From contig JAJAYZ010000091.1 in assembly GCA_027118455.1 (NCBI GenBank), positions 416-64,415 on the forward strand: 64,000 nt of DNA, read 5' to 3'. Positions 3,178 to 63,604 of this stretch are shown one piece after another; position 1 is the stretch's first letter, and every line of letters starts with the position of its first letter. The notes beneath the pieces were generated by a model, which had not been told where the DNA came from, did no database searches, and worked only from the letters and a program-made list of their open reading frames with translations. The DNA is from Actinomycetes bacterium. Lineage in GTDB: Bacteria; Actinomycetota; Actinomycetes; JAHEKZ01. The position numbers were made by a program, and so were the translations under genes.

Positions 3178-3226
3178 TTCTGACCTGCGGAAACGCAAGA
3201 GCTGTTGACACAAGTGTGGCTATCTG

Positions 3227-42685: not shown

Positions 42686-42686
42686 C

Positions 42687-47840: not shown

Positions 47841-49675
47841 CTCCCGCACGCCGGTCTCCAGTTCGACCATCTGGCTCCTACGCGACGGGTTCCGGCATGG
47901 ATTACGCGAACTGGGGCCTCTCCGCACTTCTAGCCTTGTTGGCGTTCGCTTGTGTTCAGTGGGCAGGGGCTGCGCTGGCCGGTGTGGTGACTGGTCGAGG
48001 AGTTCCACGCGGCGGGATGCTGCCCGCGTTGGTGGCGGTCACGGATTTGCAGGATCCCTCGACAGCTTGGCCTGAGCCGGCGCAAGTGCCCGCGTGGATT
48101 CCGTACTGGGGCTGCACCCTGCTGGTGTGGATCGCCGTGGGAGCATTCGTCCTCCTCGGCAAGCACCTGTGGTGCCGCTTTCTGGTTCCGAGTTCGTCCG
48201 CAGTGGACCGCGTTCGGTCACTACCTGGGTTGGCGACACCGAGCGAGGCCGAGACTGCCTCGGGGCGCAAAGCCCTGCAACGTCGCGCAGCTGTCGCACG
48301 ACCGTCGCTGGTCGGGAAAACCGCTCCCACTGACGTCGGCTATCGGCTCGGTCGGGTGCGCGGCAAGGATCTGTGGTGCTCGGTCGAGGACTCGGCGTTG
48401 CTAGTCGGACCACCGCGCATGGGCAAGGGCCTTCACATCGTCATCCCATGGGTGGTCGACGCTCCGGGGTCGGTGGTGGCGACGTCGACGCGACCGGACA
48501 CGCTCGCGGTCGCCTTCCACGCCCGTGCCACACACGGCGAAGTCGCGGTCTTCGACCCACAACGGCTTGCAGGTCTGCCGGGCGGTCTGCGCTGGTCGCC
48601 GGTGCGCGGCTGTGAATCCCCTCAGACCGCTCTCGTCCGGGCGCGAGGACTGGGGTCCGGCGCCGGATTCGGCAAGACGGTGTCGGACTCAGACTTCTGG
48701 GCCGGACAAACCGAGACGGCGTTGCGCTGCCTCCTGCACGCCGCAGCTTTGGACGGTCGGCGAGCGGTCGACTTGTACCGGTGGTCGCTGAACCCCGCAC
48801 TGGCTGAAGACGCGGTCACGATTCTCACTCGTCACGCAGACGCTGCAACCGGCTGGGCGGACGCCCTGGAGGCGGCCGTGCATGCCGATCCGCGGACGCG
48901 CGACAGTGTCTGGCTCGGTGTGCGTCAGTCGCTCGCCGCACTCGCTGACCCCGACGTGCTGGATGCCGTCGATCCTGGCCCGGGTGAAGCCTTCGACCCG
49001 GTGGGCTTCTTGAAGAACTCCGGCACCCTGTTCCTTCTGGCGTCGTCGGTTGCGTCGTCGTCTTGCGCGCCGCTGGTGGCGGCCTTCGTCGAGGACATCA
49101 CCGAGACTGCACGGACCCTGGCCGCCCGCGCCACCGGTGCGCGGCTCGACCCGCCGCTCCTTCTTGCACTGGATGAGATCGCCAACCTGACCCCGCTTCC
49201 GTCCCTTCCGTCGTTGATGGCCGAGGGCGGCGGGTCGGGCATCACCACTCTGGCTGTGTTGCAATCACTCGCCCAGGCACGACACCGGTGGGGCGAGCAC
49301 GCTGCCGACGCGATCTGGGATGCCGCCACAGTCAAGCTCGTCCTCGGCGGACTGGCGAAACTGCGCGACCTCGACGACGTGTCTCGCCTACTGGGCGAGA
49401 TCGACGAACCAACCCAGACCCTCTCTCGCGGTCGAATGGGGGAACGCTCCTCGTCCACGAGCCTGCGCCAGATGCCGGTTATGCCGCCCTCAGTTCTGCG
49501 AACCCTGCCGTTCGGAACCGGTGTGCTGCTCCTGCGACACGCCCGCCCCGTCGTCATCGACCTTCAGGCATGGCCCGACCGACCAGACGCCGACCGACTG
49601 ATCGCGGGACGCACCGCCATCGAGGCCGCAACTGCAGCGAGCCCGCTTCCGAACTCGTTGGCCGAAGTCCAATGA
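47837..49675 (+). CDS. Type IV coupling protein (VirD4/TraD/TraG-like)
   Basis: N-terminal TM helices, P-loop LLVGPPRMGKG and a C-terminal TraM-recognition-like region. Confidence 0.65.
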   Translation: MTPARRSPVRPSGSYATGSGMDYANWGLSALLALLAFACVQWAGAALAGVVTGRGVPRGGMLPALVAVTDLQDPSTAWPEPAQVPAWIPYWGCTLLVWIAVGAFVLLGKHLWCRFLVPSSSAVDRVRSLPGLATPSEAETASGRKALQRRAAVARPSLVGKTAPTDVGYRLGRVRGKDLWCSVEDSALLVGPPRMGKGLHIVIPWVVDAPGSVVATSTRPDTLAVAFHARATHGEVAVFDPQRLAGLPGGLRWSPVRGCESPQTALVRARGLGSGAGFGKTVSDSDFWAGQTETALRCLLHAAALDGRRAVDLYRWSLNPALAEDAVTILTRHADAATGWADALEAAVHADPRTRDSVWLGVRQSLAALADPDVLDAVDPGPGEAFDPVGFLKNSGTLFLLASSVASSSCAPLVAAFVEDITETARTLAARATGARLDPPLLLALDEIANLTPLPSLPSLMAEGGGSGITTLAVLQSLAQARHRWGEHAADAIWDAATVKLVLGGLAKLRDLDDVSRLLGEIDEPTQTLSRGRMGERSSSTSLRQMPVMPPSVLRTLPFGTGVLLLRHARPVVIDLQAWPDRPDADRLIAGRTAIEAATAASPLPNSLAEVQ

Positions 49676-50877
49676 GCAAACTCGTGGGGTTCACTGTTCT
49701 GATCGTCGGCTTGATGGCCGTACCTGCCATCGCACTACTCGCCCTCATCGGACTAACCGCCAACGCGATCGCTTGCACGCAGTTCACGGGCGGGTCGCTG
49801 CGACCTTCAGCGCCAGTACCTGCGCAGGCAAAGTTGTGGATTGCCTTGGCGCAGTCGGCATGTCCGGACCTCCCAGGAGCGTGGATCGCTGCGGTCATGG
49901 CGCAGGAGTCGGGGTTCCGACCGAACGCGTACGCCGACGATGTCAACGGCGGAACGTGGGGGCTGTTGCAAATCAACGAGGGCATTTGGCGCGCCACTTA
50001 CGGAGCTGGTTGGAACGCCGACCGCAACCACAACGGTGTCTGGGATGTGAAAGACCCCGAGATCCACGCTGTCGTCGCCGGAAAGTACCTGTGCGCACGC
50101 CTTGATGGCGTACGTCGCATCCGTACCGAGCATCCCGACTGGGTGTCCACTCAAGACTTGACTGAGCTCGACGCACTCGTGGTCGCGCACAACGCGGGGG
50201 AGTCCCAGCTGGAGACATACCCATCGATCCCCAACGTCACAGCCGACTTCATCCGAACCGTTCGTCATCATGTCGTGGCATGGTCTGGACCGACAGCAAG
50301 TGGGTCAAGCGCCGTCGCTGCCCCTGACCAGCCGACGGTCGATGCTGCCTGCCTTGCGAGCTTGGGCCCGGCAAGCGGGATCGTCGTACCACCCGGCACC
50401 CCGGCTGACGTCGCGACCGCGGTTCGCACGTCGCTCGGCCTTGTCGGGTCTCGCTCCGGCTGGGCGGGGATGTGCGACCGTCTGGCCTGCCGGGCGTACG
50501 GATTCGACAACAGCGGCTACGCATCGGCCTCCGTGCACTGGGCGGCCATGGTTGCGTCCGACCGAGCCCACGTTGATGACCGGTGCCCACCGGTCGGGTC
50601 ATTTGTGTTCTGGTCCACCAGCGGTCCATACGGTCACGTCGCACTTGTCGTTCAATCCGACAGTGGCTGCGATCCCGACCAGATCAAGCTCGTCAGCAAC
50701 GACGTGCTGGACAGCCGCACCGGTTACGACGGCGGTGTGTATCTCGTAACGCTCACGCAGATCGAGTCGGGCTTCATGTCACGCACCGGTTATCTCGGCT
50801 GGTCGGATCCCGTCTGCGCGGGCACCCCGCTGCCATCAGCCGCGTCGAGGGCGCGGCGGGTCGCCAGGGCCGGCTGA
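49672..50877 (+). CDS. Secreted peptidoglycan hydrolase: lytic transglycosylase (SLT) N-domain plus NlpC/P60-CHAP-like C-domain
   Basis: Signal/TM, then the SLT motif AVMAQESGFRPNAYADD...GLLQINE. The C-terminal Cys-His region reads GMCDRLACRAYG...YGHVALVV. Confidence 0.65.
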   Translation: MSKLVGFTVLIVGLMAVPAIALLALIGLTANAIACTQFTGGSLRPSAPVPAQAKLWIALAQSACPDLPGAWIAAVMAQESGFRPNAYADDVNGGTWGLLQINEGIWRATYGAGWNADRNHNGVWDVKDPEIHAVVAGKYLCARLDGVRRIRTEHPDWVSTQDLTELDALVVAHNAGESQLETYPSIPNVTADFIRTVRHHVVAWSGPTASGSSAVAAPDQPTVDAACLASLGPASGIVVPPGTPADVATAVRTSLGLVGSRSGWAGMCDRLACRAYGFDNSGYASASVHWAAMVASDRAHVDDRCPPVGSFVFWSTSGPYGHVALVVQSDSGCDPDQIKLVSNDVLDSRTGYDGGVYLVTLTQIESGFMSRTGYLGWSDPVCAGTPLPSAASRARRVARAG

Positions 50878-50880
50878 TCC

Positions 50881-51861
50881 GTGGTGGGGGCTGCCTCGGT
50901 CGATCGAGTCGATCGACTCACGCAGTTGCATGAGCAACTCACCACTGCTGTGGATGAGCTCGCCAACAGTGACGCCTGGCGCCGCATGCTGGAGGTCGCC
51001 GCGCGGATGCCGACCTACAGCCCGTCTAACGTCTTGCTCATCGCCGTGCAGCGTCCGGAGGCCACGCGAGTTGCCGGGTTCGGTACCTGGAAGTCGCTCG
51101 GGCGCCACGTCTGCAAAGGCGAGAAAGGCATCGCGATTCTGGCGCCGTGCCTATACCGGGGCCGTGACAACGGGGAAGCCGATCGGGCGGTGTCGCGTGA
51201 GGAGCAGGCGAACGCACACGAGGAGGCGAAGCGTGAGCTGCGAGGGTTCCGGGTGGTGCACGTCTTCGATGTGAACCAGACCGAGGGCGATCCGTTGCCT
51301 GACGTTGCACCGGACCTGCTTATCGGAGCAGCCCCGGACAGGTTGTGGGAGCAACTCGTCCGTCTCGTCGAAGCGGATGGCTTCGTGGTGGAGCGCGGTG
51401 CGTGTGTGTGGGCCAACGGGTACACACGCTTCGACGACTGTGTCGTCCGGGTGCGCGACGACGTGGATCTAGCCCAGGCAGTGAAGACACTGGCGCACGA
51501 ACTCGGTCACATCCGAGCCGACCACGGGACACGTTTCGCCGACACGTACCACCGGTCCGTGGACTGCCGTGGTGTGGCCGAGATTGAGGCCGAATCCATC
51601 GCATACCTCGTGACTGCTGCGGCTGGGCTCGACGCGGGTGGTTACTCCGTGCCGTACGTCGCCGGCTGGTCCGGCGGAGATCCGGATCTGCTTCGCGCCA
51701 CCGCGACCAAGGTGCTAGCTACGGCGAGCAAGATTGACGAGGAGCTCGCCAGCACCGCGCGACCTGGGATCCCAGATGGGTCCACTGGTGTCCGCCGGCA
51801 CCCCATCCCGTTCCGTCAAGTTCCTGGGCGGAGCCCTGTGGGCCGGGCCGCCGGAGGCTGA
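50881..51861 (+). CDS. ArdC-like antirestriction protein (ssDNA-binding N-domain plus HExxH metalloprotease C-domain)
   Basis: YSPSNVLLIAVQRPEATRVAGFGTWKSLGRHVCKGEKGIAI matches the ArdC N-domain. The C-terminal motif is LAHELGHI. Confidence 0.65.
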   Translation: MVGAASVDRVDRLTQLHEQLTTAVDELANSDAWRRMLEVAARMPTYSPSNVLLIAVQRPEATRVAGFGTWKSLGRHVCKGEKGIAILAPCLYRGRDNGEADRAVSREEQANAHEEAKRELRGFRVVHVFDVNQTEGDPLPDVAPDLLIGAAPDRLWEQLVRLVEADGFVVERGACVWANGYTRFDDCVVRVRDDVDLAQAVKTLAHELGHIRADHGTRFADTYHRSVDCRGVAEIEAESIAYLVTAAAGLDAGGYSVPYVAGWSGGDPDLLRATATKVLATASKIDEELASTARPGIPDGSTGVRRHPIPFRQVPGRSPVGRAAGG

Positions 51862-52066: not shown

Positions 52067-52915
52067 GTGGCGATCACGAGTAGCGACTTCTTCACGAGCG
52101 GGTCGGGCGGTGACTGGTTGGAGCCTGTCGAGCCGGAGGAGCTCGACCGCGACAGGTTGACGAGGCTCCTCGAAGCAGCAGATCCTGTCGAGCCCGACAT
52201 CGACGTCACACTCGCCTTGATGGATCTCGTCCGAGACGACCTCACAGCCTCGGGAACCGGAGGGGGTGAGTCGCTAAGCGACCAGGACATGCGCCTCGCG
52301 ACACGGGTCCTGAGCTGCGTCGCGGACCGTGCGGGCTACGAATTCAAACTGCCTTTTCGCGATCACACGAGTTGGCGTGCTTGGTGGAACCGGAACGACG
52401 GATACGGCTCGTGGCAGGCGCGTCGCGATTTGCTTGGCGGTCTATTCGACGAGACCTACGCTCGCTTAATCGCAGCGCAAGAGCAAGCGCTTGACGCCAC
52501 GTTGGCCGAGGCGATCTCTCCCCACCGCACTCTCGGTTGGCCCGACGTGGACGCCGAGATAAACGAGCTCCGCCGTCAGTTCAGCAGGGCCACGACGCCT
52601 CAGGACTGCGCAGCCGTCGGCCTCGTCGCGGTTCGTGTGACCGAAGCCTTGAGCCGGAAGGTCTATGTGCACGCGGTCCACGGCGCCCCTGGAGAGGAAG
52701 AGCCGAAAATCTCCGACACTAAGAAGCGGCTCGGCTCATACGTCGTTGCCAAGTTGCCAGGCAAGGGGAACGAAGAGCTGCGACGCCTCGCCAAGACGAC
52801 GATCGAGGCTGCTCAGGCTATGAAGCATCGGGGAACGCCTACTCGAACCGAGGTCGGGGTAGCCGCCGACGCCGTGATTTTGCTCGCGAACATGCTGCGC
52901 CGCCTCGACGAGTAA
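52067..52915 (+). CDS. Hypothetical alpha-helical protein (282 aa), immediately upstream of a TIR-domain gene
   Basis: No recognised domain. Acidic N-terminus. Confidence 0.4.
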   Translation: MAITSSDFFTSGSGGDWLEPVEPEELDRDRLTRLLEAADPVEPDIDVTLALMDLVRDDLTASGTGGGESLSDQDMRLATRVLSCVADRAGYEFKLPFRDHTSWRAWWNRNDGYGSWQARRDLLGGLFDETYARLIAAQEQALDATLAEAISPHRTLGWPDVDAEINELRRQFSRATTPQDCAAVGLVAVRVTEALSRKVYVHAVHGAPGEEEPKISDTKKRLGSYVVAKLPGKGNEELRRLAKTTIEAAQAMKHRGTPTRTEVGVAADAVILLANMLRRLDE

Positions 52916-53007: not shown

Positions 53008-53718
53008 ATGGCGCAATGCACAGCACCGTATAGAGGTCATCGGACCGCGAGTGGGCTGGCAAATTGCCCTGCGTGCGCTGGTAGGCGGTACGGCCGCTCG
53101 TCTTACTCGTCGTACTCGCACAGCGGCGGGTCATCGAACGGCGGCAGGGGTAGATCGAGTTACGGCAGTTCGTCCGGCGGTAGTGGCGGAGGCTCGCGTC
53201 GGACTAGGACCGGCCGGTCGGTGTCGTACACCCCGACCGAATGGCGCACCGTCGAGCCCTTCACGGAGAAGGCCAGTGAGCAGGCTCAGGCGCACCCCGA
53301 ACGTCGCGACCTCTTTTTGTGCCACGCCTGGGACGACCGAGAAGGTAGCGCGAAAGAGTTGCACGGCCACCTAAAGGCGAATGGCGCGTCGGTGTGGTTC
53401 AGCGAAGAAGACCTTCCCCTTGGTTCGCTCATGATCCGCGAGATTGACAAGGGACTACGGAACTCCCGCGTAGGGATAGTGCTTGTCACGCCAGCGCTGC
53501 TCAAGAGCATCGAGGGCGAGGGCGTGGCGGAAAAGGAACTCGCCGTATTGCTCTCGACCCGTCGCGTCATCCCCGTACTGCACGGAGTCAGCTTCGACGA
53601 CCTGAACAACGTCAGCCCCATGCTGGCTTCGCACGCTGGCCTAGACGCGAAGGAGTCGTCGCTCGGCCTGATTGCGGCGAAGGTTGCCGCCGCTGCCGCC
53701 GCGCTCCCCGCCGCCTAG
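53008..53718 (+). CDS. TIR-domain protein with Gly/Ser/Arg-rich low-complexity N-terminus
   Basis: RDLFLCHAWDDREGSAKELHGHLKANGASVWFSEEDL...IVLVTPALLKSIEGEGVAEKELA matches the bacterial TIR fold (FxSHAxxD ... VWxDE ... LLKS..C..E). An alternative in-frame GTG start lies at about 53222. Confidence 0.6.
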   Translation: MAQCTAPYRGHRTASGLANCPACAGRRYGRSSYSSYSHSGGSSNGGRGRSSYGSSSGGSGGGSRRTRTGRSVSYTPTEWRTVEPFTEKASEQAQAHPERRDLFLCHAWDDREGSAKELHGHLKANGASVWFSEEDLPLGSLMIREIDKGLRNSRVGIVLVTPALLKSIEGEGVAEKELAVLLSTRRVIPVLHGVSFDDLNNVSPMLASHAGLDAKESSLGLIAAKVAAAAAALPAA

Positions 53719-53911: not shown

Positions 53912-54382
53912 TTAGACGGAAGTGAACAGAGTCCGGTATCTCGAATACTCCGGGTCGTGGTCATCTGGGTGGGTGTGGGCAGTCCAACCCAGCGAGTGCC
54001 AGAACGGGTCTGAGGTCGCGTTCAGAGACATCGCAACGACTGGCTGACCGTAGTGCTGAGCGATCAACTCGACTACTCGCATTCCGTATCGTCGTCCGGA
54101 CTTTCGGAGGTCATCGCGAACCTCGATGAGATCGATTTCTGCCACACCAGCGTGGGGGCAAGTCCACGACGTGTACCCGCGGTAATGGCCGGAACGCGGC
54201 AGCACTTTGGCACGCGCCACCTCTTCACCGTCGTCCACGGCGCGGCAATAGGAAACAGGACTCTTTGCGCTGCCGCGGTGCCACCAAGAGAAGTCGAAGC
54301 GGGGGTCTTGACCAAAGTCGGGAGTCACGAGCTCTCGGCGAGCGGACAGACTCTCAGCGACTATCTCAAGTGCAAGCACCAC
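53912..54382 (-). CDS. GNAT-family N-acetyltransferase
   Basis: Motif A-like RKSGRRYGMRVVELIAQHYG in a 156-aa protein. Confidence 0.5.
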   Translation of the reverse strand: MVLALEIVAESLSARRELVTPDFGQDPRFDFSWWHRGSAKSPVSYCRAVDDGEEVARAKVLPRSGHYRGYTSWTCPHAGVAEIDLIEVRDDLRKSGRRYGMRVVELIAQHYGQPVVAMSLNATSDPFWHSLGWTAHTHPDDHDPEYSRYRTLFTSV

Positions 54383-54461: not shown

Positions 54462-55154
54462 TCAGCCCCCGTGAATAGACTCAAAGTGTTGAGCTGTCGA
54501 TGGTTGCCCCCGAAAGCGATCTCTCGCGTCGATTAGATCTGGCAATTCCTGGTTCGCCATCCGGTTCCACTGGTAGAACGACGGGTGTGGAACGTGGAGT
54601 GGGCTGGGCGTCAGATCGGGGATGGCCGCAGCAACCATGAGCTGCGCGAAGGTGCCTGCGGCCACTACTCGGCCGTCGGAACGAGTAGCGACACCCGAGA
54701 GCCAATTGCGGAGCCCGTCAACGAGAACCTCTGAAATCGCCCGTGTCACAGCTCCTCGCATGGACGAAATTGAGCGCGCCCTCGACCGGCGAACCTTTTC
54801 GATCAGAGTCCACTCGTCTTCTCCGAGGTCGGGGGCCTCGACGTCGACGAAGGCGGCTTCCTGCATGGGAACGTTGCTGACGTTCAATATGGCAATACGA
54901 CCGTCCCCAGCAGCGTGACTCTGCTGGACGAAGCGCCCGAGACTCCGGTCCTTTGGTTGAGCTGGCTGTAGGAAACGAAGGGCACTCCTGCCGGCGGTCC
55001 CAACGACGGGCAGTCCCTTCCTCAGTTCGTCGACATGGGGTGACTCGAAGACGAAAAGGAGTTCCACGGCGCGGTTGGGTGGCACGAGGTCGGGGACATG
55101 CCACCGCGCATAGATCCCGCTGCCGTCCTCGCTCAGATAATTGATGGCAGTCAT
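54462..55154 (-). CDS. Uracil-DNA glycosylase-superfamily protein
   Basis: LLFVFESPHVDELRKGLPVVGTAGRSALRFL follows the UDG family-4/5 motif-A pattern (hydrophobic-FVGEAPG..E...G.PFVG.AG..L). Confidence 0.5.
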   Translation of the reverse strand: MTAINYLSEDGSGIYARWHVPDLVPPNRAVELLFVFESPHVDELRKGLPVVGTAGRSALRFLQPAQPKDRSLGRFVQQSHAAGDGRIAILNVSNVPMQEAAFVDVEAPDLGEDEWTLIEKVRRSRARSISSMRGAVTRAISEVLVDGLRNWLSGVATRSDGRVVAAGTFAQLMVAAAIPDLTPSPLHVPHPSFYQWNRMANQELPDLIDARDRFRGQPSTAQHFESIHGG

Positions 55155-55355: not shown

Positions 55356-56263
55356 ATGTCCACCACATCGCGGCTGTTGCCGTTCCAGCCGATGGCGATG
55401 ACTGCTGCGCAGCTCGCGACCTTCTCGTGCCTTGCCCGGTATGCCGGGCACACCCACGAGCTGTACTGCTACCAGCTGCGTCTCTGGTTCCAGTGGTGTG
55501 AAGGCAACGGGCTGGATCCGTTGGTCGGGATCCAACGCGCTCACGTTGAGCTGTACATTCGCGGTCTGGGCGAGGCGGGGCTCATGGCGTCCTCGACCAA
55601 CACGATGATGCACGGAGTCCGCGGGTACTTCCGGTTCGCCCACATCGACGGCCTGATCCCAGCCGACCCCGCCGTCTACGCGCGGCTTTCGCAGGTGCAC
55701 AGCGACGAGTCGTGGACCCATGGCCTAGACCGGTTTGAGCTGATCTGCTTCCTCCAAGTCGCCCAGACCACCACCGTGCACCACGGCGCCCTGGCCTCCC
55801 TGCTGGGAATCAACGCGCTGCGAGCCTCGGAGGCGGTAGCGGTCCGCATCGAGGACTACGCCGAGACCCTGCGCGCGACCGGGTCCTGCACCTGGTGGGC
55901 AAGGGCGACAAACCCGCCTCCATGCCGTTGACCGTCCCCGTCCTGCGCGTCCTAGAGGCCTGCCGCAGTGAGCGGACCACCGGCCCGTTGGTTCGGCGGC
56001 CCAAATCGGGCGCCGATCGACCACCGCGACGCCTATCGGATGGTCACGGGGTCGCGAACGCCGCATGGGTTCCCCGACACATCAGCCCAATAGCTGCCTC
56101 ATCCGGCGATCACCAGCCCACTCGACGTCGGCGTTCCGCTCCGAGACGCCCAGAACCTCGCCCGTCACGCCGACCATGAACCACCGAGCACTACGACCGT
56201 GCCCGCGACAACCTCGACCGCCAGGGAGCCCACTTCCTCACCGCCTACGTCGCCGGGGTCTAA
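55356..56263 (+). pseudogene. XerC/XerD-like tyrosine recombinase, disrupted by at least three frameshifts
   Basis: The core-binding N-domain is intact. The catalytic domain is spread over three frames: LHLVGKGDKPASMP (box I) in a second frame, RHISP... in another, and TTEHYDRARDNLDRQGAHFLTAYVAGV-TAA (catalytic Tyr) in a third. Confidence 0.7.
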
Positions 56264-56364
56264 CCGACTCGGCGGGTACATCAACTTCGCCCAGATTGAT
56301 GTATCAGCAACGTCCTTGGAACGCGCTCCGTCGACCCGACCTTAAGCCGTACGCGCGACGCATC

Positions 56365-58278
56365 TCAACCGATGCGAACGAGTGGAACGCCACCGCGTGC
56401 AAGCTCGTCGTAGATGTCTTGGATAGGACTCTGCGAACCGCGTTGGTCGCACTGCGTGAAGATCAGTCTTTCGGCAGCGCGTGAGACCCCAACGAAGAAG
56501 GCCATGGTGGAGTCGATGGTCTCTCTCGCATGTGCCCACCATTGGTCGCCGTCGAGCCCGACGAAGAAGACCGTGTGGTACTCCAGCCCCTTGCTACGGT
56601 GGATGGTGAGCAGGGGGACGGCGTCTTCCTCGATGAAGGCACCAGCTACTTGGTCCCATGCGTCCGCGTCCGCGATCACGGCCCCGAGGCGGAGCTTGAA
56701 CGCATCCAGGGTGATGTCTAGGTCCTCAGGTCGGTCGGTGAAGACTCGCTTGTGAGCGAGGTCGTCCAGCTGCACGAACTCAGTCAGCAGGTCCGTCAGA
56801 TCGTCGGTCAGTTCTTTCACGCGTTCAGGGGTCGGTGACGCCACAATGTGATTGTCGAGGAACCTAGCTGCGAACCACGACCGTAGTTGGACGAGGAAAG
56901 CCGCGAGCGAGTCGTCGGCGCGGCTTCCGACCTCGCGGTTGAGTTCTTCTGGGATGAACTGAGCCAGGATGCCTACGACGTCGCGCCATGCTCCGGGTTG
57001 TCCCCCTCGCGACGCACCGAGGCGAATGAGCCCCACGAGCAGCCTTATCAGTTCGTCCTTGAGCAGGTCCTGGAGACGAACCTTTCCGATGAGCGCGTCG
57101 TCGTTGCGTAGCTTGAGCTGTTGCTTGGCAAGGGAGCTCGCAAGAGCCGGCTCCAGGTCAGCGACCTTCTGGCGAGCGATGAGGGCGTATTTGGACGCCG
57201 GACGACCCGATTGCTCGATGTCAGCGGCAATCCACGCCGCGAGGGTGTCGGCCTCGAGCGTGGTGGTTGAGAACGACCAGATCGCTGTCGGGCTCTCCCC
57301 GAGAGTTGCGGGAACCTGTGAGATCTGGCGTTGTGCTTGCGGGTGGAGAAGCTCCGCGAACCGATGTTGTAGGTCGACGAGTTGCTGGGTGGAGCGAAAG
57401 TTCCAGTTCAGTTCGAAGGGGGAGGCACTGAAGTCGTGCTCGAACTGGCTGAATGCGTCGTCGAGCGCGCCGGCCCATCCCATGATGCGCTGTTTGCGGT
57501 CTCCGACCACGGTGACGATGGTTTGAGAGCCACCGAACACCGAGTGGAGGAAGGAGTACTGCGTGTAGGTCGTGTCCTGGAACTCGTCGACGAACACGTA
57601 CGGGTAGGTAGCGAGCAGTGCACGTCTGAGCTGGGGATTTGTCCGGATCAGCAGCTCTGCCAGACGGTTGAGCATGACGAAGTCGACCGTGGGTACCTCG
57701 TGAGCGAGGTACTTCTGCGCCCACCAGCTGAGCACTGCGTATTCAGCAGGAGTGGTTGTAGCACCGAGTTCAGAGGGAAGCTGAGTCGGTCCGACCATGT
57801 CCGAGATGAAGGTGCCGCCCTTGATCGCGTTAAGCGCCGACTGCAACCCTGGGTCGGCGCTGGCAGCGAGGTTGTCTAGGAAGTCGCGCACCTCCCTGAC
57901 GCTTGAGAACCCGACCCTGTAGGGCCTCTTCATTGCCCAGGTCACTGGGAGCAGGTCCTTGAACCGGTCGACGAGGGACTTGGTGAAGGCGTCGAAGGTC
58001 ATCGAGGTGAAACGGTCGGCATGCTCGGGGATTCGCCCCCAGACCCGTCGCCGCAGGTTCGCCGCAGCATCGCGCTTGAAGGAGATTGCCAGGATCTGCT
58101 GGGGTGGCCGGCAGATGCCCGTTTCGAGGAGATAGCTTGCCCTTTGCGCGAGGAACTCTGATTTGCCGGCGCCCGGGCCGGCTGTGACGCTGGAAGTGTT
58201 CGCTCGTAGGGCATCCCACGCCGCCGGCTCCAGATCGTCGATGTCGCGTGGTCGCCACTCGGCTGGGTCAGTCCTCAC
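56365..58278 (-). CDS. UvrD/Rep-family helicase (GajB-like)
   Basis: Motif I SVTAGPGAGKSEFLAQR and UvrD-like helicase motifs. The GTG start overlaps the upstream OLD-family stop (GTGA). The longest ORF start lies at 58374. Confidence 0.7.
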   Translation of the reverse strand: MRTDPAEWRPRDIDDLEPAAWDALRANTSSVTAGPGAGKSEFLAQRASYLLETGICRPPQQILAISFKRDAAANLRRRVWGRIPEHADRFTSMTFDAFTKSLVDRFKDLLPVTWAMKRPYRVGFSSVREVRDFLDNLAASADPGLQSALNAIKGGTFISDMVGPTQLPSELGATTTPAEYAVLSWWAQKYLAHEVPTVDFVMLNRLAELLIRTNPQLRRALLATYPYVFVDEFQDTTYTQYSFLHSVFGGSQTIVTVVGDRKQRIMGWAGALDDAFSQFEHDFSASPFELNWNFRSTQQLVDLQHRFAELLHPQAQRQISQVPATLGESPTAIWSFSTTTLEADTLAAWIAADIEQSGRPASKYALIARQKVADLEPALASSLAKQQLKLRNDDALIGKVRLQDLLKDELIRLLVGLIRLGASRGGQPGAWRDVVGILAQFIPEELNREVGSRADDSLAAFLVQLRSWFAARFLDNHIVASPTPERVKELTDDLTDLLTEFVQLDDLAHKRVFTDRPEDLDITLDAFKLRLGAVIADADAWDQVAGAFIEEDAVPLLTIHRSKGLEYHTVFFVGLDGDQWWAHARETIDSTMAFFVGVSRAAERLIFTQCDQRGSQSPIQDIYDELARGGVPLVRIG

Positions 58279-60298
58279 GCTGGATCGACCGCCTTGGCGA
58301 TGGCGTCGAGCAGCCTTCCCAGCCGCTCTGGCGGCCTGGCTAAGCCAGAAGCACTGACTTGGTTGAGGGCGCACAAGTGAGTGCCGGGCTTCGAGTGGGT
58401 GAGAAAGAGGTACCTGTACCAGCGCAGGTCCTCAAGCTTGTCGTCCGTAGCCCAGATCGGAACATCCGGCCTGACCTTGGGCTGGCCGAGCACGGCATCG
58501 CGAGGATCGCCCTCGCTACTCGGTCCCTTGGCGCCCGGCTCAAGGTTTGTCGTGTAGGCATCCCTGAACGTCATGAGAAGCGCCATGTCGAGGTCGAGTG
58601 GGGTGGAGAAGAAGATGTTCCACTTCTCAAGATGGTTGAGCCAAGCGACGAGTTGGTCCTGGTCGAGGCCGTCGATGTAGTCTTTGGAAGTGAAGCCTTC
58701 GATACCTTCAAACGGGTCGTAGCCATTCGCGGCCAGCTGTTCGCAGACATCGCGGATTCGGCCCTCGCCGCCGCCAGCACGTCCCCAGTCGAGGTCGAGG
58801 AGCGTGGCGTAGGGAATATCGAGTTGAGAGAGAAGGCGCCAGAAGTGGTTGGTGTGCCGTCCGCCGAGCGGCACGACAGCGACGAAGGATTGGTCGATGT
58901 GCATGCCTCGACCGGCCGCCAACTTAGGCAGAACCAGTTCCTCAGACGCTCCCTCGCCGAGCACTACGAACCTGGCAAAGTACAGTTCCGGGTGCGCACG
59001 GACGGCTTCCCGGATGTATTTTCCGGCCTCGGTGGAGTCGTCGGGCAGGACGATCTCTCGAACCTTGGACGTCTTCGTGGACTCGTCGAGACGAAGGTGT
59101 CGGATCTTCTCTGGCTCGATGCGCGCGACGGCGCTGGCTGAGTGACTTGAGATGACAGCCTGGGCTCGGCCGCTCGTGGTTACGTCGAGAAGTTGCTGGA
59201 CGACGCGGGAGAGGAAGTATGGGGCGAGGTTGTTCTCGGGCTCCTCCAGCGCCAGCAGGGTCAGGGACGGGAGGTTTTTATTTGACAGGTCGAACTCGTC
59301 GTCGTGGTCACCGGCGGCGATTGCCGCTTCGATGTCAAGGATTGCGGCCGTCAACGCGATGTAGAGCAACGACTGCTGACCATCACTGAGCTCCTGCGCC
59401 GGGCGGGTTCTTCCTGCAGGGGAAGGCTCGAAGATCAGCTCGGCGCTGGACACCAGCACGCTGACGTCGCGATTGATCGGCTCGAAGGACGGCTTCTGGT
59501 CGGCGACCGCATGATGGAGTTGTTGCCAACGACTGGAGATGGCCTTCGTGACCGCGTCGACAACAGGCTCGTCCTTGAACTTGTCAGTGAGCTCCTCGGC
59601 TGCCTCGCTGACGTGGGTACGGAAGGGCTCTGACCACTGGCTGGCGCGCCAGACCCGACCGCGGAGGAAGGTGCTGACCTGCCGGGCGCCATCACGGGTC
59701 GCAGGGACGTAGACCATCTGGATGCGATTGCGGTCCGAGGCGCGAAGTTCGACCCAGCTCTCTCCATATTCTTCTTCGAACGTATGAACGACCCGCCGAC
59801 TCTCCTCGACCGTGCCAACCACCGGGCCATCCGCTGACCAGACGGCTTCGAGCACGATGCGCAGCTTGAGCTGGCCGTCTTCATCCGCAGACATCTGTGC
59901 GAAGAACTCCGGCACGGCGCCGGGTGGGGCGTCATCTTCTTCCGCAGCGAGCTCAGGGAAGGCGAAGACTGCCTCGATGGTTAGGGCCCGCTCGTCGGGC
60001 TCTTCCTGTTCGGCGTCGGGAACGTGGAAGTCCTCGACCCGCACCTGGCGCTGGTCCGAGACGACGCTGAACAGTCGCAGTAGAGCCTGGCAGACAGCTG
60101 TCTTCCCACTCGCGTTGGCGCCGAGCATCGCAGTGAGCTGCGCATCGAACCGGATCGTCGTCGGCTCCGGCCCGAAGCACTGGAAGTTGGTGACGGTCAG
60201 ACGCTCTAGGAACAACTCGGCCTCCGACCTTCGTGCCCAGTCACCCAGGCCAGTTATGTGAACGATACGAAATCTGACATGACTACGTCGGGTCGACA
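58275..60298 (-). CDS. OLD-family ATP-dependent endonuclease: ABC-type ATPase plus TOPRIM (GajA-like, class 2 OLD)
   Basis: Walker A LGANASGKTAVCQALLRLF. The TOPRIM glutamate motif VVLGEGASEELVLPKLAA and the DxD motif LLDLDWG lie in the C-terminal domain. Confidence 0.7.
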
Positions 60299-60435
60299 TC
60301 CGAAGTCGCAGCTTCGTCTTCGGTTTCGGAGTCAGATCGGTTGCAAGAAGGTTGCCGCCTCGGTCAGGCGCAGCGCCACGCAAAAGTCGCCGAAATTCGT
60401 GAGGTCGAACCTCGGTCCGGTGGCATCCTTGGACC

Positions 60436-60654
60436 GTGACTGACTACGCCACTGACCCGAAGGGGTATGAAGAACGCCTGCTGGCGAAACTTCAGCCTTC
60501 TCGGGTTCGTTCGACCCTGGCGTTCACCGCCCTGTTCCAGCTCACTCACGAAATGTTGAAGTCGATGGTCCTCGACGACGTGAAGAGCTTCTACGGGTAC
60601 ATCAACCTCGGCGGAGACGTCCGATGGTTCCCCGAAGGAGGCGAGGTCGAGTAG
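60436..60654 (+). CDS. Hypothetical protein; same frame as 60667..61023 across a single TAG
   Basis: 72-aa ORF. The TAG at 60652-60654 is followed in frame by a 118-aa ORF. Confidence 0.3.
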   Translation: MTDYATDPKGYEERLLAKLQPSRVRSTLAFTALFQLTHEMLKSMVLDDVKSFYGYINLGGDVRWFPEGGEVE

Positions 60655-60666
60655 CAACGGAAGGTC

Positions 60667-61023
60667 TTGAACCTTCACACGAACAGATTCACCGCCTCCC
60701 TGCTGTGGCTCCAGCAGATGGATGCGCTCACTGCTGAGCCGGCGGCGCGCCTGCATGACATCTACGAACACCGGCATGACCTCACCCATGAGCTCGCGAA
60801 GTACCTGGTGGACCCGAACCTTGAACCCAACTTCGACCTGTTCATCGAGGCCCTGAAGACGCTGAAGGCGCTGTCGCGGTTCTGGACCGAGGTCGAAGCC
60901 GGCTACGGCACCTTCGAGGATTTCCCCGACCTCGACCTCGACGAGGTCAAGAACGGCCGGATGATTCTGATCGAGCTATGCATTAGCGCGTACGGGCACG
61001 GTCTCACCAACGCCGACACTTGA
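60667..61023 (+). CDS. Hypothetical protein
   Basis: 118 aa, alpha-helical, no recognised domain. Confidence 0.35.
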   Translation: MNLHTNRFTASLLWLQQMDALTAEPAARLHDIYEHRHDLTHELAKYLVDPNLEPNFDLFIEALKTLKALSRFWTEVEAGYGTFEDFPDLDLDEVKNGRMILIELCISAYGHGLTNADT

Positions 61024-61357: not shown

Positions 61358-63604
61358 CTATGTGTGTCCCGCCCGGTCCCTATGGAGCGAGTCGATCAAC
61401 TCCCGCGTCCTCTCTTGAACACTGCTCCGGATCTCGATCGACCGGATGCTTGCCGACACCGGGAGGCGGGTTGACGCCAGACGGCCGGCGAACTCCTTTG
61501 ACCGCGAGTTCCAGAGGTTGAGGTTGAACTGAAGCGGTCGGTCGGGGATCGGCGTGGGGTCCCATGTCATCCGTTCGTAGACGACCGCGCCGTCCACGAG
61601 CCAGCGGATCGCGTTCGGCTGCCAGTCGATCTCGTAGGTATGGAAGTCACTGGCGGCATCGAACCCGAGATCGACCAGAGTCGGCGTGCCGCGGTAGCCG
61701 TACTCGAGCTTCGTGCCCTCGGGACCAGGGTTGTAGAACACGTTGATGAGCATCTTGCTGGTGTCCTTGCCGAGAAACTCGATATCGATCTCTTGGCGTG
61801 GCCCGTTTCGATGAAGGAACATGCCTGTCACGAGTCCATGCACGGCCGGAGGACAGAGGTCAGCCTTGAACGTTCCGTAGCGGTAGGCGGATCGGGTGGC
61901 GATCGCTCCGGACGTGAGTCCACGGACCGCGGTCCGCTCCTGACGGAGGGTGAGCAGGGCGCGGTCTCCGCGCTGACTGACGTTCGCTGGCGTAAACAGC
62001 GCCATGTTGCTTGGGAACGTGTCGTCGCGGAGTATCCAGGCTGCGTCGTCGAGTCCGGCGTCAAAGGCCCAGTCAACGCGTTCAAATGACCTGGGTGAAT
62101 CGGGAATCGTGCCGACGGTGATGCCGTCCCATGCGCGGGTTGGATTCACGATCCACGGCCCACTGTCGCGCTTCAGATCGGTCGATTTGCGAGCGCCTTG
62201 CGTAAGCGACCGGATGCCAACGGTGCGGACCCCGATGTCGTTGTCGGTCGGATAGGGCAGCGCCGGATAGTCGATGCCGAGGAACTCGCTAAGGGCCGCC
62301 CACTTGTCTGTCATATCCGGCGTAAGTGTGAGGGCGCGATCGTGAAGGGCAGGAGGCAATGGACGATTCGCGGACGTGAGGATGAATCTCGTGCCGGGAT
62401 TCGTCTTCGCCGCCTGCCGCAGAGCTTCCGCCGAAAGCGAGGTGATGTTGACGTAGGCGTTGAACAGGCAACCTCGATCACCGCGGAGGAGGGCTTGCTC
62501 TTCTGCCGTGGGCAAGTGTTCAAGGTCGTTGATGCACGTGTATCCGAGCATGGATAGGGCGGTACTGAGCGCGGTCAAGCCGGTCCCGGGTTCACCGACC
62601 GCTAGAACTGGGCCGGTCAAGTGTTTGGTTGCTGGGACGAGTGGCTTCTCGCGCGTGACGACCCCGACTTGGGACAGCACGGGCAGGACAGAGTACGAGT
62701 TGGTCGTCGGCTCGTCGATGCGCTGCTCGATGAGCGGGCGTGCCGCGATGAACGCACGCACTCGACCGAACTGCATGTTGAGCCACAAGTCGACTGGGCC
62801 GTATACGGGTAACTGGTCGAGCAGTTTTCGAGCGCCGATGCGGCTCAGGACATATCCGGAGGCTTCCCAGATCCCCGGGTGCCGTAGTCGCCGAGCGCCC
62901 GTTCCCTCGTTGGCGGCTGAGATGCTGCCGACTTCGTTGAATGCTAAGAACAGGAGTTCGAAATCTGGCTCGTCGGCCTCTTGGTGCGTGAGCGACGACC
63001 AGGTCGTTTCAAGATCGCGAGCGAAGCCGAATGTCATGAACACGTCGTCTTCAAGCACGAGCGCGTTGGAGACATCACCGTGGGCTATTAGTTTCCAGAC
63101 CTCGATGTGAGATAGGGCCACAGCGATTTCTTGCTTCGTCATCTCGATCTCACGGGCCCGCGTCTCACTGTTGATCTGAAGAAGCGGGTTTGGGTCGACC
63201 GTGAGCTGGTCGGCCAGCGTGAATCGCGGGATTAACACTGCGGGGCCTGGCATCGACTCCAAGTACCTTGCGTCAATGGCAGAGAATCGTCGGGCAAGCG
63301 TCGAGAGGCGTTCTCCGTGCCGGCCTCGAAAGCGATCGAGCTCTCGTCGTACCCGGCGCCAACGGTCGGGCCGCCGGTCGAGATTGATCACATAGATACG
63401 ACGCAAGGCAGCGGCCTCGTCGCTGCGGCAAAACACGGCTGCGCGTCGGCGCCAGTCGAATATCCGAAGGCGAAGTCGTCCGTGGTGCAGGAGGCTCTGC
63501 CGACAGTCCACGAACGCGAGTCGGTTCATGGACGGTCTCTCTTCTCCTCGCCGCGAATCCAGTTCCTCCAGTTGCGTCCGTCGCCTCGATAGTCGAGAGG
63601 CCAC
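61358..63604 (-). CDS. Multidomain carbohydrate-active enzyme: glycosyltransferase family 25-like N-domain, P-loop (sulfotransferase-like) middle region, glycoside hydrolase family 16 C-domain
   Basis: N-terminal IYVINLDRRPDRW is the GT25 (LPS glycosyltransferase) signature. A middle P-loop reads VGEPGTGLTAL. The C-terminal EIDIEFLGKD is the GH16 ExDxxE catalytic motif. Confidence 0.55.
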   Translation of the reverse strand: MASRLSRRRTQLEELDSRRGEERPSMNRLAFVDCRQSLLHHGRLRLRIFDWRRRAAVFCRSDEAAALRRIYVINLDRRPDRWRRVRRELDRFRGRHGERLSTLARRFSAIDARYLESMPGPAVLIPRFTLADQLTVDPNPLLQINSETRAREIEMTKQEIAVALSHIEVWKLIAHGDVSNALVLEDDVFMTFGFARDLETTWSSLTHQEADEPDFELLFLAFNEVGSISAANEGTGARRLRHPGIWEASGYVLSRIGARKLLDQLPVYGPVDLWLNMQFGRVRAFIAARPLIEQRIDEPTTNSYSVLPVLSQVGVVTREKPLVPATKHLTGPVLAVGEPGTGLTALSTALSMLGYTCINDLEHLPTAEEQALLRGDRGCLFNAYVNITSLSAEALRQAAKTNPGTRFILTSANRPLPPALHDRALTLTPDMTDKWAALSEFLGIDYPALPYPTDNDIGVRTVGIRSLTQGARKSTDLKRDSGPWIVNPTRAWDGITVGTIPDSPRSFERVDWAFDAGLDDAAWILRDDTFPSNMALFTPANVSQRGDRALLTLRQERTAVRGLTSGAIATRSAYRYGTFKADLCPPAVHGLVTGMFLHRNGPRQEIDIEFLGKDTSKMLINVFYNPGPEGTKLEYGYRGTPTLVDLGFDAASDFHTYEIDWQPNAIRWLVDGAVVYERMTWDPTPIPDRPLQFNLNLWNSRSKEFAGRLASTRLPVSASIRSIEIRSSVQERTRELIDSLHRDRAGHT

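What the first reader, a model, noticed from the sequence alone, without database searches (positions are those of the whole stretch)
56365..60298. Gabija-like defence pair (OLD-family ATPase-TOPRIM plus UvrD-like helicase) carried as cargo
The upstream gene has an ABC-type Walker A (GANASGKT) and a C-terminal TOPRIM with the GEGxSE and DxD motifs. The downstream gene is a UvrD-family helicase. The two are translationally coupled through a GTGA stop/start overlap.

This is the architecture of the Gabija system (GajA/GajB), also known as class 2 OLD nucleases. It sits next to a decayed tyrosine recombinase and conjugation genes, so it is probably horizontally delivered.
Basis: partly seen in the sequence, partly recalled or inferred. 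Interest (0 to 1): 0.65.

Follow-up and report, generated by a model that had tools for sequence, protein, structure and literature searches.

The report
Gabija anti-phage pair on conjugative element
Two intact, overlapping minus-strand genes encode a standard Gabija-type (class 2 OLD nuclease plus UvrD-like helicase) anti-phage system sitting among conjugation genes; it is a routine new example of a very common, already characterised defence system.

Summary
On the minus strand, gajA (58275..60215, 646 aa) and gajB (56365..58278, 637 aa) overlap by GTGA. PADLOC places them full-length in GajA (E=1.2e-223) and GajB (E=2.5e-183). Pfam gives AAA_21 plus OLD-like TOPRIM, and UvrD-helicase plus UvrD_C.

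All catalytic motifs are present and invariant in 46-sequence alignments. The TOPRIM E/G/DxD spacing is the same as in B. cereus GajA. The best structural match of the GajA model is B. cereus GajA (8u7i_A, E=4e-21).

The pairing is conserved. In 79 of 79 usable genome loci from several phyla, a full-length GajB homologue lies directly downstream. The junction is either overlapping or at most about 12 nt apart.

The cargo reading is strengthened. T4SS, coupling-protein and ArdC genes lie to the left. An identical metagenome contig shows a TrwC relaxase just beyond the window's right end. Element borders were not found.

Two corrections apply. The likely gajA start is TTG at 60215, not ATG at 60299. 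The pair is also a long-form clade only about 15% identical to the characterised Bacillus proteins, and its TOPRIM sequence is closest to Burkholderia and Xanthomonas class 2 OLD.

Verdict: an ordinary new member of a known system, of low interest.

The parts
58275..60215 (-). gajA: class 2 OLD-family nuclease (N-terminal ABC ATPase plus C-terminal TOPRIM and helical domain), 646 aa, TTG start
   Evidence: PADLOC GajA PDLC00090 E=1.2e-223, profile positions 3-654 of 659. Pfam AAA_21 plus OLD-like_TOPRIM. Identical to the NCBI protein P0001. AlphaFold model pLDDT 81, with best PDB match B. cereus GajA 8u7i_A at E=4.1e-21.
60216..60299 (-). Probably untranslated leader.
   Evidence: Homologues and the PADLOC profile begin at the TTG. 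Two Logan gene calls use the ATG.
60221..60225 (-). GGAGG Shine-Dalgarno-like sequence 5 nt upstream of the TTG start of gajA
   Evidence: Read directly from the sequence.
60099..60122 (-). GajA Walker A, GANASGKT (residues 32-39)
   Evidence: G32, N34, G37, K38 and T39 are invariant in the 46-sequence alignment A1.
59373..59390 (-). GajA ABC signature motif, LSDGQQ (residues 276-281)
   Evidence: L276, S277, D278, G279 and Q280 are invariant.
59235..59258 (-). GajA Walker B, LLALEEPE (residues 320-327). The H-loop H358 lies in SSHS at 59139-59150.
   Evidence: E324, E325, P326, E327 and H358 are invariant.
58941..58958 (-). TOPRIM glutamates in GEGASE (E421, E425)
   Evidence: both are invariant. 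HMMER aligns this motif with the 'vEGdaE' of B. pseudomallei class 2 OLD, 6nk8. The published catalytic residues there are E400 and E404 (PMC6755086).
58782..58871 (-). TOPRIM glycine (PLGGRH, G451/G452) and DxD (D474, D476)
   Evidence: The spacings E421 to G451 (30 residues) and E421 to D474 (53 residues) equal those of B. cereus GajA E379/G409/D432 (PMC10781630).
58377..58601 (-). Helical-domain residues proposed as the metal-B ligands and the catalytic lysine: D541/D543 in PLDLDM, and K609 in SKPGTH
   Evidence: All are invariant in A1. They sit at helix starts after TOPRIM strand beta-4 in the model. The correspondence to BpOLD T506/E508/K562 is inferred, not aligned.
58275..58278 (-). 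GTGA: the gajB GTG start overlapping the gajA TGA stop
   Evidence: Among 80 homologous loci, 33 have a 4-nt overlap, 2 have a 1-nt overlap and 45 have a gap of 1-12 nt.
56365..58278 (-). gajB: full-size SF1A UvrD/PcrA/Rep-like helicase, 637 aa
   Evidence: PADLOC GajB PDLC00103 E=2.5e-183, profile positions 5-606 of 612. Pfam UvrD-helicase plus UvrD_C. Identical to the NCBI protein P0121. Model pLDDT 87.5, with best PDB matches PcrA, UvrD and Rep at E about 1e-28.
58159..58182 (-). GajB Walker A, AGPGAGKS (residues 33-40)
57574..57588 (-). GajB DExQD box, DEFQD (residues 231-235)
   Evidence: All five residues are invariant.
55356..56263 (+). Tyrosine recombinase pseudogene, convergent with gajB (context)
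   Evidence: Phage_int_SAM_1 hit in the first frame. The catalytic-domain remnants are spread over two frames, with at least 3 shifts and one in-frame stop.
42546..51861 (+). Conjugation and anti-restriction block (context): TrbL/VirB6 (42546..43925), VirD4/TraG coupling protein (47837..49675), SLT/CHAP hydrolase (ORF 49288..50877), ArdC-N protein (50881..51861)
   Evidence: Pfam hits.

Best explanation
The locus is an intact two-gene Gabija (class 2 OLD) anti-phage operon, gajA-gajB, carried inside a conjugative element of an uncultured actinomycete.

**Shown here**
- GajA is an ABC-ATPase plus TOPRIM OLD-family nuclease with a complete set of ATPase and two-metal nuclease residues.
- GajB is a full-size UvrD/PcrA/Rep-type SF1A helicase with all ATPase and helicase motifs.
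- The two genes are translationally linked, and the pairing is invariant across the family.

**Inferred from work on B. cereus and P. aeruginosa Gabija**
- The two proteins assemble into a GajA-GajB hetero-oligomer (4:4 in Bacillus).
- At normal cellular NTP levels the GajA nuclease is held off.
- On infection, GajA nicks or cleaves invading DNA through its TOPRIM site.
- GajB engages the resulting or incoming DNA ends and hydrolyses (d)NTPs.
- Phage DNA is then degraded or prevented from circularising and replicating. This applies particularly to linear DNA ends not occupied by the host end-processing machinery.

**Consequence of the location**
On the conjugative element the system travels horizontally. 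It protects both the host and the element.
For: **Family assignment**
- PADLOC GajA E=1.2e-223 and GajB E=2.5e-183, both full-length.
- Pfam OLD-like_TOPRIM, AAA_21, UvrD-helicase and UvrD_C, all above their cutoffs.

**Catalytic residues**
- All catalytic residues are invariant in 46-sequence alignments.
- The TOPRIM E/G/DxD spacing is identical to BcGajA E379/G409/D432/D434 (PMC10781630).
- The TOPRIM segment aligns to the B. pseudomallei and X. campestris class 2 OLD structures.

**Structure**
- The Foldseek top hit of the GajA model is BcGajA, 8u7i_A, E=4.1e-21 over the full length.
- The GajB model matches PcrA, UvrD and Rep at E about 1e-28.

**Conservation of the pair**
- 79/79 usable genome loci across Actinomycetota, Proteobacteria, Acidobacteriota, Nitrospira and Spirochaetes have the helicase directly downstream.
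- The junctions are overlapping or no more than 12 nt apart.

**Defence and mobility context**
- Homologous pairs sit in defence islands, next to McrBC, a methyltransferase and DUF4365 in M. abscessus, and next to a ThsB-type TIR protein and an integrase in Blastococcus.
- Conjugation genes lie on both sides here.
- 64 plasmids carry relatives.
- P. aeruginosa PA14 Gabija also lies in a conjugative island, PAPI-1, and needs both genes and the same motifs (PMC12407980).
Against: **No functional data**
There are no functional data for this locus or for any close relative.

**Distance from the characterised Bacillus system**
- A single-sequence search does not reach BcGajA at E<1e-3.
- A family profile reaches it only at E about 3e-7. 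This is no better than class 1 Thermus OLD at 4e-10.
- Identity in the structural alignment is about 15%.
- GajB resembles housekeeping UvrD and PcrA (1e-40 to 1e-37) far more than BcGajB (1e-13). BcGajB is not among the top 50 fold matches.
- Mechanistic details such as sequence-specific nicking, ATP inhibition and 4:4 stoichiometry may therefore not transfer. Published Gabija mechanisms themselves disagree: abortive nucleotide depletion in Bacillus against non-abortive end-targeting in PA14 (PMC12407980).

**Other gaps**
- Neighbouring genes are decayed: the integrase pseudogene, a 195-aa gene with an in-frame TAG, and a truncated ABC ATPase. Expression of the pair therefore cannot be assumed.
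- The element borders were not located.
Confidence: 0.88

Rival explanations
1. This is a functionally distinct long-form class 2 OLD system of the BpOLD type, not a mechanistic copy of Bacillus Gabija. It would have an ATP-hydrolysing ABC domain, a non-sequence-specific exo/endonuclease and a genuinely unwinding full-size helicase. Its target might be incoming conjugative or plasmid DNA ends as much as phage.
For: - The TOPRIM sequence is closest to B. pseudomallei and X. campestris class 2 OLD. Both are non-specific nucleases, and BpOLD hydrolyses ATP (table in PMC10568477).
- All ABC motifs are canonical and invariant.
- GajB is 637 aa, against 494 aa for BcGajB, and matches full-length PcrA, UvrD and Rep.
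- The pair lies between the T4SS genes and the relaxase.
- PA14 Gabija acts on plasmid DNA ends as well (PMC12407980).
Against: - This is still Gabija by every definition in use (PADLOC, and class 2 OLD in PMC10568477).
- The best whole-chain structural match is BcGajA.
- No experiment distinguishes subtypes, so the difference is one of degree.
Confidence: 0.25
2. The nuclease is a stand-alone (class 1) OLD or another OLD-containing system (PARIS, retron class 3, Septu). On this reading it merely happens to lie next to an unrelated repair helicase.
For: - The profile E-value to class 1 Thermus OLD (4.4e-10) is slightly better than to BcGajA.
- The ATPase part gives weaker PADLOC or NCBIfam hits to AriA (2.7e-21), P2 Old (3.1e-19) and PtuA.
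Against: - The helicase is directly downstream in 79/79 usable loci, with overlapping or near-abutting junctions.
- The GajA model hits outscore all others by 100 to 200 orders of magnitude.
- No reverse transcriptase, HNH partner or separate AriB-type TOPRIM protein is present in the neighbouring ORFs.
- No Rfam RNA family is found between 52 and 64 kb.
Confidence: 0.03
3. The pair is a silent or decaying remnant, with no current function, in a degraded island.
For: - The adjacent tyrosine recombinase is a multi-frameshift pseudogene.
- The upstream 195-aa gene carries an in-frame TAG.
- The ABC ATPase at 41428..41994 is a C-terminal fragment.
- No sigma-70-like promoter was found. That scan is not suited to high-G+C actinomycetes.
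Against: - Both ORFs are full-length with no stops.
- Every catalytic residue that is invariant in the family is retained.
- Lengths match the homologues exactly.
- Identical sequence was recovered from at least three independent metagenome runs.
Confidence: 0.07

Closest known systems
Bacillus cereus VD045 Gabija (GajA/GajB; PDB 8SM3, 8U7I, 8X5I, 8TK0)
   Same: - Two-gene operon of an OLD-type ABC-ATPase/TOPRIM nuclease followed by an SF1A helicase.
- Identical TOPRIM E/G/DxD spacing.
- DExQD box and Walker A present in the helicase.
- Best whole-chain fold match of the GajA model.
   Different: - About 15% identity.
- GajA is 646 aa here against 578 aa.
- GajB is 637 aa here against 494 aa, with larger accessory (1B/2B) regions.
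- Sequence searches barely connect the two systems.
- The host is a Gram-positive high-G+C actinomycete, and the system sits on a conjugative element.
Class 2 OLD nucleases of Burkholderia pseudomallei and Xanthomonas campestris (PDB 6NK8, 6NJV; Schiltz et al. 2019, PMC6755086)
   Same: - Closest solved TOPRIM sequences.
- The E-x3-E and DxD motifs align.
- A helical domain follows the TOPRIM core, carrying conserved acidic residues and a lysine.
- A partner UvrD-like helicase gene is adjacent.
   Different: - Only the C-terminal regions of those proteins are solved.
- Equivalence of D541/D543/K609 to T506/E508/K562 is inferred from position and invariance, not from an alignment.
- No phage-defence phenotype has been reported for those two proteins.
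Pseudomonas aeruginosa PA14 Gabija in the PAPI-1 conjugative island (PMC12407980)
   Same: - A gajA-gajB operon carried as cargo of a conjugative element.
- Both genes, and the ATPase, TOPRIM and DExx motifs, are required for defence.
   Different: - The sequence relationship to the present pair was not measured, because the PA14 proteins were not available in the tools.
- The host has RecBCD. The end-processing machinery of this actinomycete is unknown.
Class 1 OLD (phage P2 Old; Thermus scotoductus OLD, PDB 6P74)
   Same: Same ABC-ATPase plus TOPRIM fold. It is the third-best fold match and the best profile E-value.
   Different: Class 1 proteins are single genes with no helicase partner and are shorter. 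Here the helicase partner is invariant.

Membership tests
Gabija / class 2 OLD system | GajA: N-terminal ABC-type ATPase with Walker A, signature motif, Walker B and H-loop | tested here: met
   GANASGKT (32-39), LSDGQQ (276-281), LLALEEPE (320-327) and H358 are all invariant in alignment A1. Pfam AAA_21 76 bits.
Gabija / class 2 OLD system | GajA: C-terminal TOPRIM with an invariant Glu, an invariant Gly and DxD | tested here: met
   E421, G451 and D474/D476 are present. Their spacing is the same as BcGajA E379/G409/D432/D434 (PMC10781630). Pfam OLD-like_TOPRIM E=3.2e-15.
Gabija / class 2 OLD system | Class 2 extras: a second Glu (BpOLD E404), helical-domain metal-B ligands (T506/E508) and a catalytic Lys (K562) | tested here: inconclusive
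   E425 aligns with E404. D541/D543 and K609 are invariant and lie at helix starts after beta-4 in the model. Their equivalence is by position only, because no residue-level superposition was possible.
Gabija / class 2 OLD system | A UvrD/PcrA/Rep-like SF1A helicase gene adjacent, in the same operon | tested here: met
   GTGA overlap. Helicase motifs I, Ia, II (DEFQD), III, IV, V and VI are present. Profile match to PcrA E=1.2e-39. 79/79 usable loci keep the pair.
Gabija / class 2 OLD system | Recognised by the curated defence-system HMMs for both components | tested here: met
   PADLOC GajA PDLC00090 E=1.2e-223 and GajB PDLC00103 E=2.5e-183, both near full-length. DefenseFinder models were not available.
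Gabija / class 2 OLD system | Fold of GajA like solved GajA | tested here: met
   Foldseek top hit 8u7i_A, E=4.1e-21, TM 0.54/0.55. Further GajA entries (8x5i, 8sm3) are among the top 5.
Gabija / class 2 OLD system | GajA-GajB hetero-oligomer (4:4 in Bacillus) | not testable with these tools
   No complex prediction or biochemistry was available.
Gabija / class 2 OLD system | Protection against phage that requires both genes | not testable with these tools
   Needs a phage challenge experiment.
Class 1 OLD (stand-alone) | Single gene with no conserved helicase neighbour | tested here: not met
   The helicase is directly downstream in 79/79 usable loci.
Class 3 OLD (retron I-B) | Adjacent reverse transcriptase and msr/msd non-coding RNA | tested here: not met
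   No RT domain was found in the neighbouring ORFs. No Rfam family was found between 52 and 64 kb.
PARIS (AriA/AriB) and Septu (PtuA/PtuB) | ATPase separate from the TOPRIM (AriB) or HNH (PtuB) partner | tested here: not met
   The ATPase and TOPRIM are fused in one protein. AriA and PtuA hits cover only the generic ATPase part and are far weaker. No HNH or AriB-like neighbour is present.
Conjugative element (ICE or plasmid) cargo | T4SS components, a coupling protein and a relaxase flanking the cargo, with defined ends (att sites) | tested here: inconclusive
   TrbL/VirB6, VirD4/TraG, SLT/CHAP and ArdC lie to the left. A TrwC relaxase (E=5.8e-64) lies to the right, on the identical contig L084. 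No flanking direct repeats or borders were found, and the only nearby integrase is a pseudogene.

The most novel reading that the evidence does not exclude
The long-form clade to which this pair belongs may be a mechanistically separate Gabija subtype. The clade has a GajA of about 646 aa with fully canonical ABC motifs, and a GajB that is a full-size 637-aa UvrD/PcrA-like helicase. It is about 15% identical to the Bacillus proteins and spans at least five phyla. Such a subtype could have an ATP-hydrolysing, non-sequence-specific BpOLD-like nuclease driven by a true unwinding helicase. Placed between the T4SS genes and the relaxase of a conjugative element, it could police incoming linear or single-stranded DNA ends from rival mobile elements as well as from phage.
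Probability: 0.2. Interest if true: 0.4.

Novelty: new member of a known kind. Interest (0 to 1): 0.14.

Why it matters
Little is at stake. Gabija is among the most common defence systems, found in roughly 13-15% of genomes (PMC10781630, PMC12407980). It is already known on plasmids and conjugative islands, and this locus would be called by any standard defence-finder.

Its modest value is threefold:
- It is a clean, intact example of the long-form clade that is abundant in Actinomycetota and Proteobacteria, for which no member appears to have been studied biochemically.
- It adds one more case of defence cargo (Gabija plus a ThsB-like TIR protein and ArdC) on an actinobacterial T4SS-type conjugative element.
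- It is a reminder that NCBI names such genes only 'AAA family ATPase' and 'ATP-dependent helicase'.

Tried and rejected
1. **Element borders.** The 3' end of the tmRNA gene has no second copy in the window. A repeat search over 33.6-64 kb gave only short, low-identity pairs that look like chance, apart from the inverted repeats of an IS. The borders remain undefined.
2. **Promoter and terminator scan, 55.8-61.5 kb.** No sigma-70-type promoter was found, and terminator-like sites were not enriched: 6 found against 3.7 expected. This is uninformative for a high-G+C actinomycete.
3. **Retron or other RNA partner.** There were no Rfam hits between 52 and 64 kb.
4. **A third, accessory gene.** The divergent upstream ORFs 60436..60654 and 60667..61023 have no Pfam or PADLOC hits. 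They turned out to be one about 195-aa conserved hypothetical gene split by an in-frame TAG. Its homologues are not next to Gabija in the three contexts examined, and the genes upstream of gajA differ in L002 and L003. It was rejected as part of the system.
5. **ThsA partner for the ThsB-like TIR protein.** None was detected among its neighbours.
6. **Direct residue alignment to BcGajA.** Single-sequence phmmer reached it only at E about 0.3 and ranked it too low to be printed. The motif correspondence therefore rests on spacing and on the published residue numbers.
7. **A PHROGs scan of the joined upstream ORF** failed because of the internal stop and was not repeated.

Full report
**What is there**

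The interval holds two uninterrupted minus-strand ORFs.
- The upstream one ends with TGA at 58277-58275.
- The downstream one starts with GTG at 58278-58276 and ends at 56365, so the two share the tetranucleotide GTGA.

A TTG at 60215, preceded at 5 nt by GGAGG, is the better-supported start.
- It yields the 646-aa protein that NCBI annotates for this very sequence (P0001, 100% identity, 'MAG: AAA family ATPase [Actinomycetia bacterium]', contig of 84,994 bp).
- Homologues of 644-650 aa align from residue 1.
- The PADLOC profile starts at residue 30-31 of the longer version.
- Two metagenome gene calls nevertheless use the ATG.

The downstream protein (637 aa) is likewise identical to an NCBI entry, P0121, 'ATP-dependent helicase'.

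**Family assignment**

| Test | GajA-like protein | GajB-like protein |
|---|---|---|
| PADLOC | GajA PDLC00090, E=1.2e-223, profile 3-654 of 659 | GajB PDLC00103, E=2.5e-183, profile 5-606 of 612 |
| Pfam | AAA_21 and OLD-like_TOPRIM | UvrD-helicase, AAA_19, UvrD_C |
| NCBIfam | nothing above cutoff; partial hits only | nothing above cutoff; partial UvrD/Rep/PcrA hits only |

The NCBIfam result explains the bland public names.

So are the ones it asked to have checked:
- ABC signature LSDGQQ
- Walker B LLALEEPE
- H-loop H358
- TOPRIM glycine G451
- further invariant residues D541, D543 and K609

These were located and shown to be invariant. The helicase has Walker A AGPGAGKS, DEFQD, and motifs Ia, III, IV, V and VI, all invariant.

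The spacings E421 to G451 (30 residues) and E421 to D474 (53 residues) are exactly those of B. cereus GajA E379, G409 and D432/D434 (PMC10781630). HMMER aligns GEGASE...DLD with the catalytic E400/E404...D455/D457 segment of B. pseudomallei class 2 OLD (residues from PMC6755086).

**Distance from characterised members**

The pair is not close to the Bacillus system.
- A single-sequence search of PDB sequences does not reach BcGajA at E<1e-3.
- A 46-sequence profile reaches Thermus class 1 OLD at 4.4e-10, B. pseudomallei class 2 OLD at 2.3e-8, and BcGajA at about 3e-7.
- The helicase profile matches PcrA, UvrD and Rep at 1e-40 to 1e-33, but BcGajB only at 1e-13.

Structure prediction closes the gap for GajA.
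- The model (pLDDT 81, pTM 0.77) has BcGajA in the Gad1-bound complex as its top PDB match (8u7i_A, E=4.1e-21, TM 0.54/0.55, about 15% identity).
- Next come ATP-bound GajA, Thermus OLD, the GajAB complex, and retron-Eco8 OLD.

The GajB model (pLDDT 87.5) matches full-size PcrA, UvrD and Rep (E about 1e-28 to 1e-25, TM about 0.6). BcGajB is absent from the top 50. The helicase is therefore a full-size SF1A enzyme, about 140 residues longer than BcGajB.

In short, this is a long-form clade of class 2 OLD/Gabija. Its TOPRIM sequence is closest to the Burkholderia and Xanthomonas proteins.

**Is the pairing real or accidental?**

The family is large: 320 representatives at 50% clustering with E<=1e-30. 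I fetched 80 genome loci. They come from Actinomycetota, Alpha-, Beta- and Gammaproteobacteria, Acidobacteriota, Nitrospira and Spirochaetes.
- 79 have a full-length GajB homologue immediately downstream on the same strand.
- The one exception ends 318 bp after gajA.
- Junctions are 4-nt overlaps in 33 loci (ATGA 21, GTGA 8, TTGA 4), 1-nt overlaps in 2, and gaps of 1-12 nt in 45.

This excludes a stand-alone class 1 OLD next to an unrelated helicase. The published definition of class 2 OLD is this adjacency, and the review states that class 2 OLD and GajA are synonymous (PMC10568477).

No RT, HNH or separate TOPRIM partner is nearby, and no Rfam RNA is found there. That excludes retron class 3, Septu and PARIS.

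**Context and the 'cargo' claim**

Homologous pairs lie in defence islands.
- In M. abscessus the neighbours are McrBC, an N6/N4 methyltransferase and DUF4365.
- In Blastococcus the neighbours are a ThsB-type TIR protein, Nmad2, MazG_C and an integrase.

In this window the left side carries:
- TrbL/VirB6
- a VirD4/TraG coupling protein
- an SLT/CHAP wall hydrolase
- an ArdC-N anti-restriction protein
- a TIR protein that matches PADLOC ThsB full-length (E=1.4e-84)

Next comes a tyrosine recombinase pseudogene (55356..56263). It has at least 3 frameshifts and an in-frame stop.

A 14.7-kb metagenome contig is 100% identical to the window over 56232-64000 and extends beyond the window's right end. 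It carries two glycosyltransferase genes and then a TrwC-family relaxase/helicase (TrwC E=5.8e-64, AAA_30 E=5.1e-52).

The Gabija pair therefore sits between T4SS/coupling-protein genes and the relaxase. That is good evidence it is inside a conjugative element.

Relatives are found on 64 plasmids at E<=1e-30, of which 25 are predicted conjugative and 11 mobilizable. The experimentally studied PA14 Gabija also lies in a conjugative island (PMC12407980).

I could not find the element's ends. Core genes (tRNA-Sec, selA, selB) end at 33.6 kb, so the left border lies somewhere between 33.7 and 42.5 kb.

**Mechanism (inferred)**

By homology, GajA and GajB should form a hetero-oligomer. The TOPRIM two-metal site (E421/E425, D474/D476, probably D541/D543 and K609) cuts DNA. 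The ABC domain senses nucleotides. GajB acts on DNA ends with its ATPase.

The outcome would be either degradation of phage DNA with nucleotide depletion (the Bacillus model) or a block to circularisation of linear DNA not protected by the host end-processing complex (the PA14 model, PMC12407980).

This clade has fully canonical ABC motifs, a BpOLD-like TOPRIM and a full-size helicase. It may therefore behave more like BpOLD, with non-specific cleavage and ATP hydrolysis (table in PMC10568477). None of this was testable here.

**Verdict**

This is an intact, unremarkable new member of a very common and well-characterised defence system, carried where such systems are often carried. Interest is low. 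The only slightly open point is whether the long-form clade differs mechanistically from Bacillus Gabija.

Noticed in passing
window 53008..53718 (+): A 236-aa TIR-domain protein matches the PADLOC ThsB model PDLC00424 full-length (E=1.4e-84) and Pfam TIR_2. No ThsA-like partner was detected in the neighbouring ORFs (52067..52915, 53912..54382, 54462..55154), all of which lack Pfam or PADLOC hits. It may be an orphan ThsB, or a Thoeris-like system with an unrecognised effector.
   Followed up: partly
window 60436..61023 (+), stop at 60652-60654: The two small ORFs divergent from gajA (72 aa and 118 aa) are in the same frame and separated by a TAG. Joined, they match more than 100 single proteins of about 195 aa, at up to 89% identity and 100% coverage. 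These are conserved actinobacterial hypotheticals with no Pfam domain. So this is a gene with a nonsense mutation, or a sequencing error. Homologues lie in variable island-like contexts (next to HsdR, a 1330-aa SIR2_2 protein, ResIII helicases, Lsr2 and DUF4062), not next to Gabija.
   Followed up: yes
window 56230-56232 (about 30 nt inside the 3' end of the integrase pseudogene, 133 bp past the gajB stop): Three independent Logan assemblies (SRR35256601, SRR35256605 and SRR35256610) are 100% identical to the window and all terminate at this same point. That is about one k-mer into the integrase gene, whose stop is at 56261-56263. This suggests the integrase-side sequence is repeated or polymorphic in these communities, and that a module boundary lies at the integrase stop codon.
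   Followed up: partly
L084:1-3279 (equivalent to about 65.0-68.3 kb, just beyond the window's right end, minus strand): A TrwC-family relaxase/helicase (TrwC E=5.8e-64, AAA_30 E=5.1e-52) lies on a contig identical to the window. Between it and gajA are a Gly_transf_sug protein (window 63526..>64000) and a GT25-GH16 fusion protein (61358..63604). This is unusual sugar-modifying cargo on a conjugative element.
   Followed up: partly
window 41428..41994 (-): A 188-aa ORF matches only positions 624-760 of an 851-position PADLOC candidate-defence ABC ATPase model (PDC-S06, E=8.7e-28). It looks like a truncated or decayed defence gene.
   Followed up: no
window 34827..36175: An IS element: an rve-family transposase (34843..36123, minus strand) flanked by 35-nt imperfect inverted repeats (34827-34861 and 36141-36175). 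It lies just right of the core selA/selB genes.
   Followed up: no
window 2806..4423: A tmRNA gene (2806..3177, tag ANTSRTDLTLAA) is immediately followed by an intact tyrosine integrase (3227..4423, Phage_integrase E=2e-21). This is probably a separate island integrated at ssrA. No second copy of the tmRNA 3' end is present in the window.
   Followed up: partly
window 42893..46719 (+): Two large ORFs inside the conjugation block (820 aa and 493 aa) have no Pfam hit at E<=1e-3. The following 374-aa ORF (46716..47840) has only a DnaB N-terminal domain. The T4SS of this actinobacterial element is poorly covered by current models.
   Followed up: no
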